A stretch of DNA of 11,400 nt from a virus (Duplodnaviria > Heunggongvirae > Uroviricota > Caudoviricetes): IMG/VR virus record IMGVR_UViG_2654587571_000016; one strand, written 5' to 3'. Below the pieces are notes generated by a model. That model did no database searches. It worked only from the letters and a program-made list of their open reading frames with translations, and was not told where the DNA came from. Below, in pieces: positions 6,920-10,484 of this stretch. The position numbers and the translations under genes were made by a program. Each line of letters opens with the position of its first letter. Position 1 is the stretch's first letter.

Positions 6920-7492
6920 CTATTTATACAATACAACACCGCTCTTTTTAGTTATATATGTGCAGTTCGATGGTATATCTTTATTTATAAAAGACATTGC
7001 ACCTATTTTTACATTATCCCCAATTTTACGTGATAATCCAATGATGCAACAATTAGCTCCGATATCAACGTTACTACCAATTTTTACTCTTGAACCAGGC
7101 ATGTCACCATCTATCTGTCCAATGGTAGTATTCTGTCGTAACACCAGATTTTCACCAGCATCAACAGCAAAATGAACAACAATTCCAGCATGATGGGGAA
7201 TTGTTAACCCTTTTCCAATATTTGCGCCCAATCCAATTTCACAACCAAATTTGTTAATTATTTTACTGTTTAACTTTTTGGCTGCTTTCTTATGTAATTT
7301 ATTACCATTAATATACATTTCGTTAGCCAACCGCCACCAGAAAAGGAAATTCCGGTTACGCTGTTTTTTCTCTCTTAAAAGCCTCCAGATATCCATACGT
7401 TTCCGCCGAATTACTTCATATTTCCAGAAGTTTTTTAAATTAGTAGAGTCCCCAAATAAAACAAAGTGAATTGCCATTAAGTAAGACAGCAC
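6920..7492 (-). CDS. Hexapeptide-repeat acetyltransferase (WcaB/CysE/WbbJ-like left-handed beta-helix O-acetyltransferase); low-GC cargo gene
   Basis: Hexapeptide signature ..GCEIGLGANIGKGLTIPHHAGIVVHFAVDAGENLVLRQNTTIG..IGSNVDIGANCCIIG..; by inspection much lower GC than the flanking tail genes. Start uncertain: GTG 7492 has GGAGA 5 nt upstream; alternatives are ATG 7477 and the longest-ORF GTG 7525. Confidence 0.75.
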   Translation of the reverse strand: MLSYLMAIHFVLFGDSTNLKNFWKYEVIRRKRMDIWRLLREKKQRNRNFLFWWRLANEMYINGNKLHKKAAKKLNSKIINKFGCEIGLGANIGKGLTIPHHAGIVVHFAVDAGENLVLRQNTTIGQIDGDMPGSRVKIGSNVDIGANCCIIGLSRKIGDNVKIGAMSFINKDIPSNCTYITKKSGVVLYK

Positions 7493-7648
7493 GATAATCT
7501 CCTTAATTATTATTTCAGACCACACATATTATAAGGTTAAGAGATTATAAAATCCTGTTGTTTGTTATTCAAAAACAATTTTCTGAGAAGGACATACAAC
7601 AGCAAGTCGCCAGTCACCTTCATCAGGAAATTGGCGACATACGTTAAA

Positions 7649-8797: not shown

Positions 8798-9058
8798 ATG
8801 TTCCGTTGTCCGCTTTGTGGCGCATCTGCCCGAATCCGCACCAGTCGTCCGGAAAACGATTCAAACACTGTGCGGCAAAAGTATTACCAGTGTAACAACC
8901 TGGAATGCGGCGTATGCTTCTCAACACTGGAAGCTTTCCATAAATTCACATCAAAACACGCCTCCGGCGTTCACTCTTCGGAAGGTATCCCGTGGCATGA
9001 GCTGCCAGCTTCACACAGGGGAAACAATCAGATGAGTTTGCCTTTACCTCAGAATTAA
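8798..9058 (+). CDS. ogr: Ogr/Delta-family zinc-finger late transcription activator (P2 Ogr-like, with C-terminal extension)
   Basis: MFRCPLCGASARIRTSR...YYQCNNLEC: the CxxC...CxxxxC zinc-finger layout and MF.CPLC start of Ogr/Delta; strong Shine-Dalgarno (AAGGGAGG); 86 aa against about 72 aa for P2 Ogr. Confidence 0.8.
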   Translation: MFRCPLCGASARIRTSRPENDSNTVRQKYYQCNNLECGVCFSTLEAFHKFTSKHASGVHSSEGIPWHELPASHRGNNQMSLPLPQN

Positions 9059-9067
9059 CAGGCAGAA

Positions 9068-9096
9068 TTGCCGGAGTAACAAAAAAACGATAGATT
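9068..9096 (+). promoter_or_regulatory. Candidate promoter for the hok mRNA (long structured leader expected)
   Basis: TTGCCG (9068-9073), 17-nt spacer, TAGATT (9091-9096), about 150 nt upstream of the hok ATG, in line with the long leaders of hok-family mRNAs. Confidence 0.2.
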
Positions 9097-9248
9097 ACCC
9101 GCGGGTGCCTTTCGGCTGATGGTCGGAGGAATACCCGAAGGCCGGATGTGGAAAGGCCCCGGAAAACATTTCTGTTTAACCGAGGCCCTAACATATCTAC
9201 CTTAAGCAAGTGATAGGTTAGCGCCTCTCCAACAAAGGAGCAAGCGCT

Positions 9249-9389
9249 ATGTCGCAAAAATCGCTTACAGCCATCACGTTCTGCGTGACGGTAATCCTCA
9301 TCATCTGGATGCTACACGGTTCGCTGTGTGAAATACGGATGAGCTTCTGGGGAGCGGAGTTTGCGGCGTTCTTACAGTGTAAGCAGTAA
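9249..9389 (+). CDS. hok: Hok/Gef-family type I toxin (46 aa membrane peptide)
   Basis: MSQKSLTAITFCVTVILIIWMLHGSLCEIRMSFWGAEFAAFLQCKQ: hydrophobic N-terminal helix followed by the conserved SLCEIR...AAF(L/M) motif shared with HokA/HokC as I recall them; AAAGGAG Shine-Dalgarno 8 nt upstream; missed by the 60-aa ORF track. Confidence 0.8.
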   Translation: MSQKSLTAITFCVTVILIIWMLHGSLCEIRMSFWGAEFAAFLQCKQ

Positions 9390-9398
9390 GGAAACCGC

Positions 9399-9420
9399 GA
9401 CGGGGGAGCAATCCCCCGTC
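9399..9420 (+). other. GC-rich perfect hairpin in the hok 3' UTR (possible mRNA stability or fold-back element)
   Basis: gacggggga-gcaa-tcccccgtc: 9-bp perfect stem, 4-nt loop, no U-run after it. Confidence 0.4.
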
Positions 9421-9475
9421 AATCGGTTGCTAAGGTTGGCTGAAGTGGCACCCTATCTCACAGACATGAACAACA

Positions 9476-9509
9476 AACCCGCAGCGTAAGAACTGCGGGT
9501 TTTCTTTTT
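9476..9509 (+). terminator. Intrinsic terminator of the hok transcript (possibly bidirectional)
   Basis: cccgcag-cgtaagaa-ctgcggg followed by TTTTCTTTTT. Confidence 0.6.
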
Positions 9510-9577
9510 GGAACAATCACTAGCTAGTGTACCGTTAACGGCACATAATGCTCGCACAACAAACCTGTTAAAAGAGA

Positions 9578-9859
9578 TTACTCAGCATTCTCCTGCTTCC
9601 ATTGCCGGATCATTTCATCGGTAACATCACCCTCATAACATACCACGTCATACCCTCCATTACGGCTATATGCACTGCGTCCACCACATCTACTACCATT
9701 CCTTGCATGATTATAAGGACACGCACAATTGCCTGGATAAGATTCAATGGATTCTTTAATTATTTCTTTTTTGATCTGAGCATCAGACTTTCCTGTTGCT
9801 GCATATCCACTAAAAGATACTAAACAAAGGCAGATTGCCATTAATAAACCACATCGCAT
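9578..9859 (-). CDS. Small secreted cysteine-rich protein of unknown function (about 93 aa, predicted signal peptide)
   Basis: Taking ATG 9859 gives MRCGLLMAICLCLVSFSGYA|ATG..., a signal-peptide-like N-terminus; mature part holds 5 Cys (..PGNCACPYNHARNGSRCGGRSAYSRNGGYDVVCYEGD..). The longest ORF runs to 9973 (TTG/ATG) but that extension is non-hydrophobic and lacks a Shine-Dalgarno. Confidence 0.5.
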   Translation of the reverse strand: MRCGLLMAICLCLVSFSGYAATGKSDAQIKKEIIKESIESYPGNCACPYNHARNGSRCGGRSAYSRNGGYDVVCYEGDVTDEMIRQWKQENAE

Positions 9860-10140
9860 ACCGATACACTCTATTACTAACCAATCATAGCCCACATCAT
9901 AAAATCGAGATGAGGAGTACAATACCTTTAACAAGAAGGTGTCATAACGATAATATGTCGTGCAATTCATCAAAAAAAAGATCTATATCAAAGAGATAGA
10001 ACTCTTATCAGTGCTTCAGACATCGGCATTCGAGGCAGCAGAAAAACAGTAAATCTGACGAATTTGCCTTTTCCCAAGATGTTGTCAGATTAAAAAGATA
10101 GATTAGCGCAGGTACCTGTTGGTGGATTGCAGGAGGAAAA

Positions 10141-10245
10141 ATGAAGTCGAGTGAAAAAATCCCAGAAAAATTTTTGTTTAACAGAGGTCCTGGTTCACTA
10201 TGCGAAATACGGAGGAGCTGCAGAAGAATTCTGCTTCATCCTTAG
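10141..10245 (+). pseudogene. Decayed hok-like paralog (34-codon ORF retaining the SLCEIR motif but lacking the transmembrane segment)
   Basis: MKSSEKIPEKFLFNRGPGSLCEIRRSCRRILLHP; DNA homology to the intact hok both in the coding region (ggttcactatgcgaaatacgga vs ggttcgctgtgtgaaatacgga) and upstream (gatagattagcgca vs gataggttagcgcc); AGGAGG Shine-Dalgarno retained. Confidence 0.4.
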
Positions 10246-10329
10246 AGTTTAAACAGCACGTGCACTACCATTGTTTCTGCATATCGCCACACCATCGCCA
10301 CTCTACCGCCATTGCACAAAATACAAATA

Positions 10330-10355
10330 CGAAAAAACCACCCGAAGGTGGTTTC
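10330..10355 (-). terminator. Intrinsic terminator of the glyW-cysT-leuZ tRNA operon
   Basis: On the minus strand: aaaccacc-ttcg-ggtggttt hairpin followed by a TTTTTT run, about 40 nt after the leuZ 3' end. Confidence 0.6.
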
Positions 10356-10397
10356 ACGACACTGCTTATTGCTTTGATTTTATTCTTATCTTTCCCA

Positions 10398-10484
10398 TGG
10401 TACCCGGAGCGGGACTTGAACCCGCACAGCGCGAACGCCGAGGGATTTTAAATCCCTTGTGTCTACCGATTCCACCATCCGGGC
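10398..10484 (-). tRNA. leuZ: tRNA-Leu (anticodon UAA)
   Basis: The reverse complement matches E. coli tRNA-Leu(UAA) as I recall it (GCCCGGATGGTGGAATCGGTAGACACAAGGGATTTAAAATCCC...GGGTACCA), 87 nt including CCA. Confidence 0.95.

What the first reader, a model, noticed from the sequence alone, without database searches (positions are those of the whole stretch)
9578..9973. Small secreted cysteine-rich protein encoded convergently to hok
A roughly 93-aa product with a signal-peptide-like N-terminus and a CxC...C..C...C cysteine pattern (..NCACPYNHARNGSRCGGRSAYSRNGGYDVVCYEGD..) that I cannot assign to a family. Small periplasmic disulfide-rich proteins on prophage islands are often inhibitors, immunity proteins or exclusion factors.
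Basis: inference. Interest (0 to 1): 0.5.

Follow-up and report, generated by a model that had tools for sequence, protein, structure and literature searches.

The report
Prophage-borne small secreted cysteine-knot protein
This is a real, conserved gene for a small exported, disulfide-stabilised protein carried as cargo at the end of a P2-like prophage in E. coli; it belongs to a large, widespread family that nobody has characterised, so it is a modest lead, not a surprise.

Summary
A 93-aa protein is encoded on the minus strand at 9578-9859. The gene is convergent with hok and shares a bidirectional terminator with it. It is ECs2649 of the Sakai prophage Sp13, annotated only as hypothetical.

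The precursor has a Sec-type signal peptide with no lipobox. The mature part is about 73 aa with four near-invariant cysteines. It lies inside the att-bounded P2-like prophage at leuZ, between ogr/hok and attR.

Elsewhere the same ~70-aa module is fused to peptidoglycan-binding domains (SH3_3, PG_binding_1, TonB_C) and to secreted nucleases (SNase, GmrSD_C). Its Cys-loop core is net positive in 98% of copies.

Best reading: a periplasmic, two-disulfide binding module for an anionic envelope or extracellular polymer, carried as a prophage moron. The ligand and phenotype are unknown. Linkage to hok is local to enteric P2-like prophages and is not a property of the family.

The parts
9578..9859 (-). 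CDS of the 93-aa precursor (stop codon included). It is ECs2649 / WP_001303543.1, annotated 'hypothetical protein'.
   Evidence: ORF and sequence. RefSeq annotation. 235 word-index homologues and 2,303 representative clusters. dN/dS about 0.2.
9800..9859 (-). Signal peptide, residues 1-20 (MRCGLLMAICLCLVSFSGYA). Signal peptidase I cleavage is predicted after A20. There is no lipobox.
   Evidence: Hydropathy, charge and (-3,-1) analysis of 182 family members: 96% have a hydrophobic core, 93% a basic n-region, and 2 of 182 a lipobox. SignalP was not available, so the cleavage site is inferred.
9581..9799 (-). Mature domain, residues 21-93: an N-terminal helix, a Cys-stabilised basic loop region and a C-terminal helix.
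   Evidence: AlphaFold2 models with pLDDT 81.6 (full length) and 84.5 with pTM 0.72 (mature part). No PDB or BFVD structural neighbour.
9635..9739 (-). Conserved core, residues 41-75: Y-P-G-N-C-x-C-P-Y-N-x3-N-G-x2-C-G-x-R-S-A-Y-S-R-x-G-G-x4-C-Y. It holds the four cysteines.
   Evidence: Invariant columns. Column frequencies, and net charge +3.8 on average and positive in 98% of 271 copies. Cysteines conserved in 271 of 277 copies. Residues 37-70 also match phrog_14503 and phrog_3117.
9860..10062 (-). AT-rich upstream region that travels with the gene. It presumably holds the gene's own promoter, but no strong sigma-70 consensus was found.
   Evidence: Homology with the copA-site copy in strain 58-3 covers window 9570-10062. 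GC is 34-40%. The consensus scan found no minus-strand promoter. A weak TTGTAC-15 nt-TATGAT at 9922-9896 was read by eye.
9475..9502 (.). Bidirectional intrinsic terminator shared by hok (+) and the target gene (-).
   Evidence: The terminator scan reports it on both strands.
9082..9503 (+). Intact hok locus (hok CDS 9249-9389) with a sok-like leader. It is a neighbour, not a functional partner.
   Evidence: Pfam HOK_GEF. Rfam sok at 46.7 bits, below the gathering score. Homology with P2-like prophages at other sites ends at 9511.
10085..10250 (+). Degenerate second hok locus. The 5' leader is conserved, there is an internal deletion, and a ...GSLCEIR... fragment remains. It lies upstream of the target gene.
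   Evidence: Alignment A3. ORF 10141-10245 contains GSLCEIR. A blastn match to the hok leader covers 10102-10191.
10329..10453 (-). attR core: the phage-borne copy of the 3'ETS-leuZ terminator region plus the 3' half of tRNA-Leu(UAA). It marks the right end of the prophage.
   Evidence: K-12 homology starts at 10329. The same 124 bp is repeated next to the integrase in O26 11368. There is no third copy in the window. tRNAs are located.
8798..9058 (+). ogr (P2 late-gene activator), the last core phage gene before the cargo segment.
   Evidence: Pfam Ogr_Delta, E = 5e-14. RefSeq annotation.

Best explanation
The gene encodes a precursor that the Sec pathway exports and signal peptidase I cleaves. 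The mature periplasmic protein is about 73 aa. Two helices flank a basic loop held by two disulfides, inferred as C45-C58 and C47-C74. The protein is one free-standing copy of a widespread, uncharacterised extracytoplasmic module. In other bacteria that module is attached to peptidoglycan-binding domains or to secreted nucleases. I therefore think it is non-catalytic and binds an anionic envelope or extracellular polymer, such as peptidoglycan stem peptides, LPS or capsule phosphates, or DNA. In E. coli and Salmonella the module has been captured as accessory cargo (a moron) at the att-proximal right end of P2-like prophages, next to hok. There it would be expressed from the lysogen and alter an envelope-level property. 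Shown: the gene is real, the signal-peptide character is conserved, the cysteines are conserved, the gene lies inside the prophage, the family is large, the fusions exist, and no homologue or fold neighbour is known. Inferred: the cleavage site, the disulfide pairing, the binding function, the ligand, and expression in the lysogen.
For: Export: signal-peptide features are conserved in 96% of 182 members with unrelated sequences, and almost none has a lipobox. Disulfides: all four cysteines are kept in 271 of 277 domain copies. Phage mini-proteins (TL-2011b AEW24557, Klebsiella phage QBQ71877) keep only C45 and C58. They have His at position 47 and end before position 74, a paired loss consistent with C45-C58 and C47-C74. 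Module behaviour: of 50 longer relatives, 15 carry SH3_3, 3 PG_binding_1, 2 SNase, 1 TonB_C and 1 GmrSD_C. The module sits on either side of its partner, and tandem copies occur. Anion binding: the core (residues 41-75) is net positive in 98% of 271 copies, mean +3.8. R61 is 98% conserved and position 66 is always R or K, while the flanking helices are neutral or acidic. Prophage cargo: att repeats bound the element, and the gene lies between ogr and attR. The layout is the same in Salmonella at 59% identity. A second E. coli copy lies at a hok-bearing element end next to copA. GC is 34-41% against about 50% for its neighbours. Selection: dN/dS is about 0.2. The gene is present in 598 of 5,426 complete E. 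coli genomes, full-length in at least 579 of them. It is retained where the prophage is heavily degraded.
Against: No ligand, phenotype or expression datum exists. No paper mentions ECs2649 or the protein accession. No strong sigma-70 promoter was found upstream. The binding-module idea rests on domain co-occurrence and charge, which would also fit an oligomerisation or purely structural module. No isolated phage genome among 50,697 records carries the full gene, so its packaging and transfer with virions is inferred from att mapping only. A 48%-identical relative lies next to hiuH, just beyond where homology to isolated (mostly Klebsiella) phages ends. This shows that family members near prophages can be host genes.
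Confidence: 0.5

Rival explanations
1. It is a dedicated periplasmic inhibitor, immunity protein or superinfection-exclusion factor. It would block an incoming phage's ejection machinery, a peptidoglycan hydrolase, or a toxin delivered to the periplasm.
For: It has a prophage-end moron location and is exported to the compartment where such factors act. It is retained in degraded prophages. Short relatives occur in temperate podophages as morons; phrog_14503 is classed 'moron, auxiliary metabolic gene and host takeover'.
Against: There is no PADLOC match. The ogr-attR end is not among the P2 defence hotspots listed in PMC13586616. The same module is fused in cis to nucleases and peptidoglycan-binding domains. 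It is a syntenic chromosomal gene in Acinetobacter. Neither fact is expected of a specific immunity or inhibitor protein. No cognate toxin or effector gene is a conserved neighbour across genera.
Confidence: 0.2
2. It is a small periplasmic metal-binding protein. The four cysteines (CxC plus two single Cys) would coordinate Zn, Cu or another metal instead of forming disulfides, or the module would act as a cation-binding accessory in the way proposed for Excalibur.
For: Four invariant cysteines. Fusion to SNase, a Ca-dependent nuclease family (the Ca dependence is from my own knowledge). P0172 carries an Excalibur-like segment plus this module. Three members give weak hits to a zinc-finger model, RIM2a_ZnF, best E 0.01.
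Against: The compartment is oxidising, which favours disulfides. The phage mini-proteins keep exactly two cysteines. There are no conserved His, Glu or Asp ligands in the core; the conserved polar residues are Arg, Ser, Tyr and Asn. There is no similarity to Excalibur (hhalign probability below 1%).
Confidence: 0.12
3. It is a functionless hitch-hiker in E. coli: a gene captured from another bacterium that persists only because it sits beside the addictive hok locus and the leuZ att site.
For: It is AT-rich foreign DNA. No strong promoter or Shine-Dalgarno sequence was seen. It sits amid hok copies and remnants. Many carriers are clonal STEC lineages with 100% identical copies.
Against: dN/dS is about 0.2 among diverged E. 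coli alleles, and the core is unchanged. The reading frame is kept between E. coli and Salmonella at 59% identity in the same position. It is full-length in at least 579 of the 598 genomes that have it. O157:H7 keeps it although the adjacent hok was deleted.
Confidence: 0.13
4. It is a functional partner of hok, for example a modulator or second component of the toxin-antitoxin locus.
For: It is convergent with hok, shares its terminator, and has a hok remnant on the other side. Salmonella has two hok copies plus a leader remnant next to its orthologue.
Against: None of 80 loci from other species has hok within 6 kb. P2-like prophages at ihfA have ogr-hok without this gene. O157:H7 has the gene without hok. 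Hok acts in the inner membrane under antisense RNA control and needs no protein partner (established knowledge of hok/sok).
Confidence: 0.03

Closest known systems
Excalibur domain (Pfam PF05901), a predicted extracellular Ca-binding module
   Same: It is small, cysteine-containing and extracytoplasmic. It occurs free-standing behind a signal peptide or fused to SNase and GmrSD_C/DUF1524 nucleases and to SH3 domains. The Excalibur architectures are from my own knowledge of Pfam. P0172 has an Excalibur-like segment and this module in one protein.
   Different: There is no detectable sequence relationship (no Pfam hit at E <= 5 in 37 members; hhalign probability below 1%). It lacks the DxDxDGxxCE motif. 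It has four cysteines rather than two. It is about 70 aa with flanking helices. The usage is analogous, but it is not a member.
phrog_27544, phrog_14503 ('membrane associated protein') and phrog_3117 in PHROGs v4
   Same: phrog_27544 matches over its full length (E = 7e-58), so the family is already clustered from prophage data. phrog_14503 and phrog_3117 share the core at residues 37-70 (E about 1e-6). Examples are the 53-54-aa 'transmembrane anchored protein' of phage TL-2011b and of Klebsiella phage ST512-KPC3phi13.3.
   Different: These entries have no assigned function. The mini-proteins have only the first half of the core, two cysteines and no flanking helices.
Prophage morons that encode exported envelope proteins (lambda Bor and Lom, Cor, T5 Llp, P22 SieA)
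   Same: It is a single gene with foreign base composition at a prophage periphery, and its product is exported to the envelope.
   Different: There is no sequence or fold similarity to any of them. Most of those are lipoproteins or membrane proteins, whereas this one is soluble with no lipobox. No exclusion or serum-resistance phenotype is known.
Periplasmic lysozyme inhibitors (Ivy, MliC/PliC, PliI, PliG)
   Same: They are small periplasmic proteins, and some are disulfide-bonded.

Membership tests
Excalibur (PF05901) | A match to the Pfam model, or profile similarity to Excalibur segments | tested here: not met
   There was no hit in hmmscan of the protein (E <= 1) or of 37 family members (E <= 5). 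hhalign of the family profile against two Excalibur-bearing sequences gave probabilities of 0.6% and 0.2%. Only single Excalibur sequences were available, so the test has limited power.
Excalibur (PF05901) | The DxDxDGxxCE calcium-binding loop | tested here: not met
   The motif is absent from the protein and from the family consensus.
Hok/Gef toxin-antitoxin locus (as a component) | Consistent co-occurrence with hok across the family | tested here: not met
   0 of 80 loci from other species have hok within 6 kb. The gene occurs without hok in O157:H7, and hok occurs without the gene at ihfA.
Known anti-phage defence proteins (PADLOC-DB v2) | A match to any defence-system model | tested here: not met
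   No family matched at E <= 1.
Sclerostin (PF05463), the only Pfam hit | A score above the Pfam gathering threshold | tested here: not met
   The score was 18 bits against a cut-off of 27. Only 2 of 37 family members hit it. This is a chance match driven by cysteine composition.
Sec/SPI-exported soluble periplasmic protein | An N-terminal signal peptide (basic n-region, hydrophobic core, small residues at -3/-1) and no lipobox | tested here: met
   The heuristic analysis fits the protein and 96% of 182 homologues; a lipobox occurs in 2 of 182. SignalP and experiment are not available here.
Prophage moron / accessory cargo of a P2-like prophage | The gene lies between attL and attR of the element, outside the core gene set, with deviant base composition | tested here: met
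   The att core at 10329-10453 is repeated beside the integrase. The gene lies between ogr and attR. GC is 34-41%. The gene is absent from P2-like prophages at ihfA.
Prophage moron / accessory cargo of a P2-like prophage | Autonomous expression from the repressed prophage (own promoter and terminator) | tested here: inconclusive
   A terminator is present. No consensus promoter was found. 200 bp of upstream sequence travels with the gene. No transcript data were found.
phrog_27544 (PHROGs v4, unknown function) | A full-length match to the profile | tested here: met
   E = 7.2e-58, covering profile positions 1-81 of 81.

The most novel reading that the evidence does not exclude
The ~70-aa two-disulfide module would be a new, widespread extracytoplasmic domain with a new fold that binds nucleic acid or another anionic polymer. 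Bacteria would use it to tether nucleases and cell-wall proteins. P2-like prophages would deploy a free copy in the periplasm as a new kind of envelope-level conversion or exclusion factor, for example by intercepting incoming phage DNA or masking a receptor.
Probability: 0.08. Interest if true: 0.65.

Novelty: new member of a known kind. Interest (0 to 1): 0.33.

Why it matters
The gene is in about 11% of complete E. coli genomes (598 of 5,426), including the O157:H7, O26, O103 and O111 STEC lineages. It survives where the surrounding prophage has decayed. Its domain family spans thousands of sequence clusters in many phyla, yet it has no curated model, no solved structure and no literature. 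Defining the ligand would annotate all of these at once. It would also explain the family's recurrent fusion to secreted nucleases and cell-wall-binding domains. As it stands, this is a well-delimited domain of unknown function, not a new mechanism.

Tried and rejected
1. Curated family libraries gave nothing. Pfam returned only a sub-threshold Sclerostin hit, and NCBIfam and PADLOC returned nothing.
2. A PDB sequence search with the family profile returned nothing at E <= 10.
4. A tblastn search of 50,697 phage genomes found no full-length homologue. Only the mini-protein core was found.
5. Clustering the neighbours of 80 loci showed only within-genus synteny, in Acinetobacter (cysD/cysN, a thioredoxin) and in Kosakonia. 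One small secreted 'NWSTKGNVNPYTG' protein recurred in 5 loci across genera but has no Pfam match.
6. Remote homology to Excalibur was rejected.
7. A tandem-element explanation, with the gene in an older islet outside the prophage, was rejected. There is no third att copy, and a copA-site element also carries the gene.
8. I considered whether the sok promoter of the hok remnant could drive the gene. The remnant's deletion appears to remove the region where the sok promoter lies in the intact copy. This was read by eye and was not tested.
9. A search for the Ogr-type TGT-N12-ACA site gave one hit (9528-9545), fewer than expected by chance, so it is uninformative.
10. Literature searches for WP_001303543, ECs2649 and guessed EDL933 tags found nothing.
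11. An alignment of the E. coli and Salmonella upstream regions showed no conserved promoter.

Full report
**1. What is in the sequence**

The minus strand carries a 131-aa mechanical ORF at 9578-9973, starting at TTG. The real gene is shorter: ATG at 9859-9857 to TAA at 9580-9578, 93 aa. RefSeq uses this start in O26:H11 11368 (WP_001303543.1) and in O157:H7 Sakai, where the gene is ECs_2649 inside 'prophage Sp13, P2-like phage'.

Homologues are 89-106 aa and begin directly with a signal peptide. The Salmonella orthologue has an unrelated upstream extension. The extra 38 codons are therefore not coding.

The gene is convergent with hok (9249-9389, Pfam HOK_GEF). The two share a bidirectional intrinsic terminator at 9475-9502.

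**2. The protein**

- **Signal peptide.** Residues 1-20 (MRCGLLMAICLCLVSFSGYA) have a basic n-region, a hydrophobic core and small residues at -3/-1. Across 182 homologues the N-terminal sequences are unrelated, but 96% have a strongly hydrophobic 10-residue window and 93% have a K or R before it. Only 2 have a lipobox. This is the signature of Sec export with signal peptidase I cleavage. The exact site is inferred.
- **Conserved core.** The mature ~73 aa contain S37, Y41, G43, C45, C47, P48, Y49, G55, C58, G59, R61, S62, A63, S65, G68, G69, C74, Y75 and D78, all invariant or nearly so.
- **Cysteines.** All four are present in 271 of 277 domain copies. Short phage proteins that share only the first half of the core keep C45 and C58, have His at position 47, and stop before position 74. 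That paired loss suggests C45-C58 and C47-C74 disulfides. This is an inference.
- **Structure.** AlphaFold2 gives a confident model (pLDDT 84.5, pTM 0.72 for the mature part). An N-terminal and a C-terminal helix flank the Cys-loop region.
- **Charge.** The loop core (residues 41-75) is net positive in 98% of 271 copies, mean +3.8. R61 is 98% conserved and position 66 is always R or K. The two helices are neutral to acidic.

**3. Where it sits**

The window is E. coli, 100% identical to several STEC genomes. Homology to K-12 begins at window 10329, the terminator of the 3'ETS-leuZ region.

In O26 11368 the same 124 bp is repeated beside the prophage integrase next to yecA. This repeat is the 3'ETS plus the 3' half of tRNA-Leu(UAA) up to the anticodon loop. 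Those are attL and attR, so the phage integrated into leuZ and restores it.

The window holds no third copy of the core. So ogr (8798-9058), hok, the target gene and a degenerate second hok locus (about 10085-10250) all lie inside one att-bounded P2-like prophage, at its right end.

Other arrangements:
- P2-like prophages integrated at ihfA share ogr-hok, but their homology stops at window 9511 and they lack the gene.
- A diverged copy (91% nt identity) sits next to copA in strain 58-3 as hok-acetyltransferase-gene. Homology there covers window 9570-10062, so about 200 bp of upstream sequence travels with the gene.
- Salmonella has the same layout at leuZ with a 59%-identical protein.

The segment is AT-rich (34-41% GC) compared with about 50% for ogr and hok. 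The P2 defence hotspots described so far are GpA-GpQ, int-att, int-primase and within the tail genes (PMC13586616). The ogr-attR end is not among them.

**4. Distribution and selection**

The CDS is in 598 of 5,426 complete E. coli genomes, almost always once. It is mostly in STEC lineages.

O157:H7 keeps it at 100% identity although an IS30 event removed gpD, ogr and hok. Strains EcPF16 and NDM5 keep ogr-hok-gene although the rest of the prophage is replaced by IS elements or a group II intron. Among diverged E. coli alleles dN/dS is 0.17-0.22, and the core is untouched.

Beyond enterics the family is large: 235 word-index hits and 2,303 clusters at 50% identity with E <= 1e-3, of which 1,475 have E <= 1e-10. 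A strict-motif scan of one genome per species found 268 species. These include Acinetobacter, Aeromonas, Pseudomonas, Kosakonia, Geobacter relatives, alpha- and betaproteobacteria, Cyanobacteria/Melainabacteria, Acidobacteria and Omnitrophota.

Conserved neighbours exist only within genera, for example Acinetobacter next to cysD/cysN and a thioredoxin. None of these 80 loci has hok within 6 kb, and one has an ogr homologue. The hok linkage is therefore a feature of enteric P2-like prophages, not of the family.

IMG/VR holds 171 viral contigs with a relative. The E. coli type lies 1-1.5 kb from contig ends. A 48%-identical group lies next to the host gene hiuH, about 300 bp beyond where homology to isolated (mostly Klebsiella) phages ends. 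It may be a host gene swept into prophage predictions.

**5. What it is not**

- No Pfam, NCBIfam or PADLOC family matches. The only Pfam hit, Sclerostin, scores 18 bits against a cut-off of 27 and is a cysteine-composition artefact.
- PHROGs has the family as phrog_27544, 'unknown function' (E = 7e-58). The core also matches phrog_14503 and phrog_3117.
- All source names are 'hypothetical' or 'uncharacterized'.
- A PDB sequence search with the profile returns nothing.
- No isolated phage genome carries the full gene.
- No paper mentions the accession or locus tag.

**6. Clues to function**

Of the top 150 representative hits, I scanned the 50 that were at least 150 aa. Fifteen carry SH3_3, 7 SH3_4, 3 PG_binding_1, 1 PG_binding_2, 2 SNase, 1 TonB_C, 1 GmrSD_C and 1 CBS.

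Domain order varies: SH3_3-X, X-PG_binding_1, X-TonB_C, SNase-X, X-SNase and X-GmrSD_C. Tandem X-X proteins exist, and one protein has an Excalibur-like segment followed by X.

This is how a promiscuous extracytoplasmic accessory module behaves. Its partner spectrum (secreted nucleases, cell-wall binders, or free-standing behind a signal peptide) parallels what I recall for the Excalibur domain. No sequence relationship to Excalibur is detectable.

With about 70 residues, two disulfides and no conserved catalytic-type residues, an enzyme is unlikely. The uniformly basic, Arg/Ser/Tyr-rich loop suggests binding of an anionic polymer.

**7. Best explanation and rivals**

I think the product is a soluble periplasmic, disulfide-stabilised binding module captured as a moron by P2-like prophages (overall confidence 0.5). 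Export, the module character and the prophage-cargo status are well supported. The ligand and the benefit to the lysogen are not established.

- **Dedicated inhibitor, immunity or exclusion factor (0.2).** It is compatible with the location, but the cis fusions and the chromosomal syntenic copies fit it poorly.
- **Metal binding through the four cysteines (0.12).** This is disfavoured by the oxidising compartment, the two-cysteine mini-proteins and the lack of other ligand residues.
- **Functionless hitch-hiker (0.13).** This is disfavoured by dN/dS of about 0.2 and by retention after loss of hok.
- **Component of the hok system (0.03).** This is contradicted by the distribution.

**8. Expression**

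Expression is untested. No consensus sigma-70 promoter was found upstream on the minus strand. A weak TTGTAC-15 nt-TATGAT can be read at 9922-9896.

The gene is co-oriented with, and about 470 bp downstream of, the glyW-cysT-leuZ operon terminator at 10355-10334. Read-through is therefore conceivable at leuZ, but not at the copA site, where copA is divergent.

**9. Verdict**

The gene is a genuine member of a large, uncharacterised family of exported domains, carried here as prophage cargo. It is a reasonable target for a domain-of-unknown-function study. It does not challenge current understanding. Interest 0.33.

Noticed in passing
window 10085-10250 (+): This is a second, degenerate hok locus. 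Its 5' leader is homologous to 9088-9195, it has an internal deletion, and a residual ...GSLCEIR... coding fragment remains. It lies between the target gene and attR. Salmonella has two intact hok copies plus a leader-only remnant beside its orthologue.
   Followed up: partly
window 8167|8168: Relative to the O26:H11 11368 prophage, the window lacks about 7.5 kb. The missing genes are most of the tape measure, gpE, the tail tube, the sheath, gpD and most of a 379-aa 'YecA family' cargo gene. The prophage in this window is therefore a defective deletion derivative.
   Followed up: yes
window 10329-10453 and L093 4180-4303: The phage carries its own copy of the 3'ETS-leuZ sRNA-sponge region plus the 3' half of leuZ. 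After integration the expressed leuZ/3'ETS is phage-derived. It is identical over the stretch I compared by eye. The original copy is left promoterless beside the integrase.
   Followed up: partly
window 6920-7525 (-): A hexapeptide-repeat acetyltransferase, annotated 'serine O-acetyltransferase' in RefSeq, is inserted between the tail-fibre assembly gene and gpU. This is the P2 tail-gene cargo hotspot. In strain 58-3 a similarly annotated 'serine acetyltransferase' sits between hok and the target gene; it shares about 65% nt identity with this gene over about 390 bp.
   Followed up: partly
window 9528-9545: There is a near-perfect palindrome, TGTACCGTTAACGGCACA, between the hok terminator and the 3' end of the target gene. 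It is the only TGT-N12-ACA site in the window, which is not more than chance would give. The IS30-associated deletion in O157:H7 ends at about 9527, right beside it.
   Followed up: partly
L094 2953-3114 (phage TL-2011b) and L095 2956-3114 (Klebsiella phage ST512-KPC3phi13.3): These are 53-54-aa 'transmembrane anchored proteins': a signal peptide plus about 30 aa (G-R/N-C-Q-H-x-DTAADGSRCGGRSADSRPGG). They share only the first half of the core and have two cysteines. They lie near anti-repressor genes of temperate phages. They look like a minimal version of the module.
   Followed up: partly
L016 5283-5609, L019 5684-5965, L052 5505-5756, L073 6078-6395, L078 1814-2137: In 5 of 80 loci from different genera, a small secreted Gly/Asn/Tyr-rich protein lies immediately next to the family member. 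It has the motif ...GY.R.(D/N)GTYV...N(W/Y)ST.GN.NPYTG..GT and no Pfam match.
   Followed up: no
L027 6001-6252 and 9347-9518 (Acinetobacter bohemicus): The Acinetobacter homologue lies about 3 kb from a tRNA-Leu(UAA)-tRNA-Cys(GCA) pair. This is the same tRNA pair that flanks the E. coli prophage copy. It is probably coincidence, and it was not seen in another syntenic Acinetobacter locus I checked (L088).
   Followed up: no
L144 7974-8267: A 48%-identical homologue appears in more than 30 IMG/VR prophage predictions. It lies next to a periplasmic transthyretin-like hiuH gene, about 300 bp beyond the end of homology to isolated (mostly Klebsiella) phages. It is probably a host gene included through over-extended prophage boundaries.
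   Followed up: partly
L002 6001-8826 (Pseudomonas sp. EpS/L25): The Pseudomonas homologue sits in an island with a P4 cII-like gene, a Beta_protein gene and an SNase gene with a weak Excalibur match two genes away. This echoes the SNase fusions seen elsewhere.
   Followed up: no
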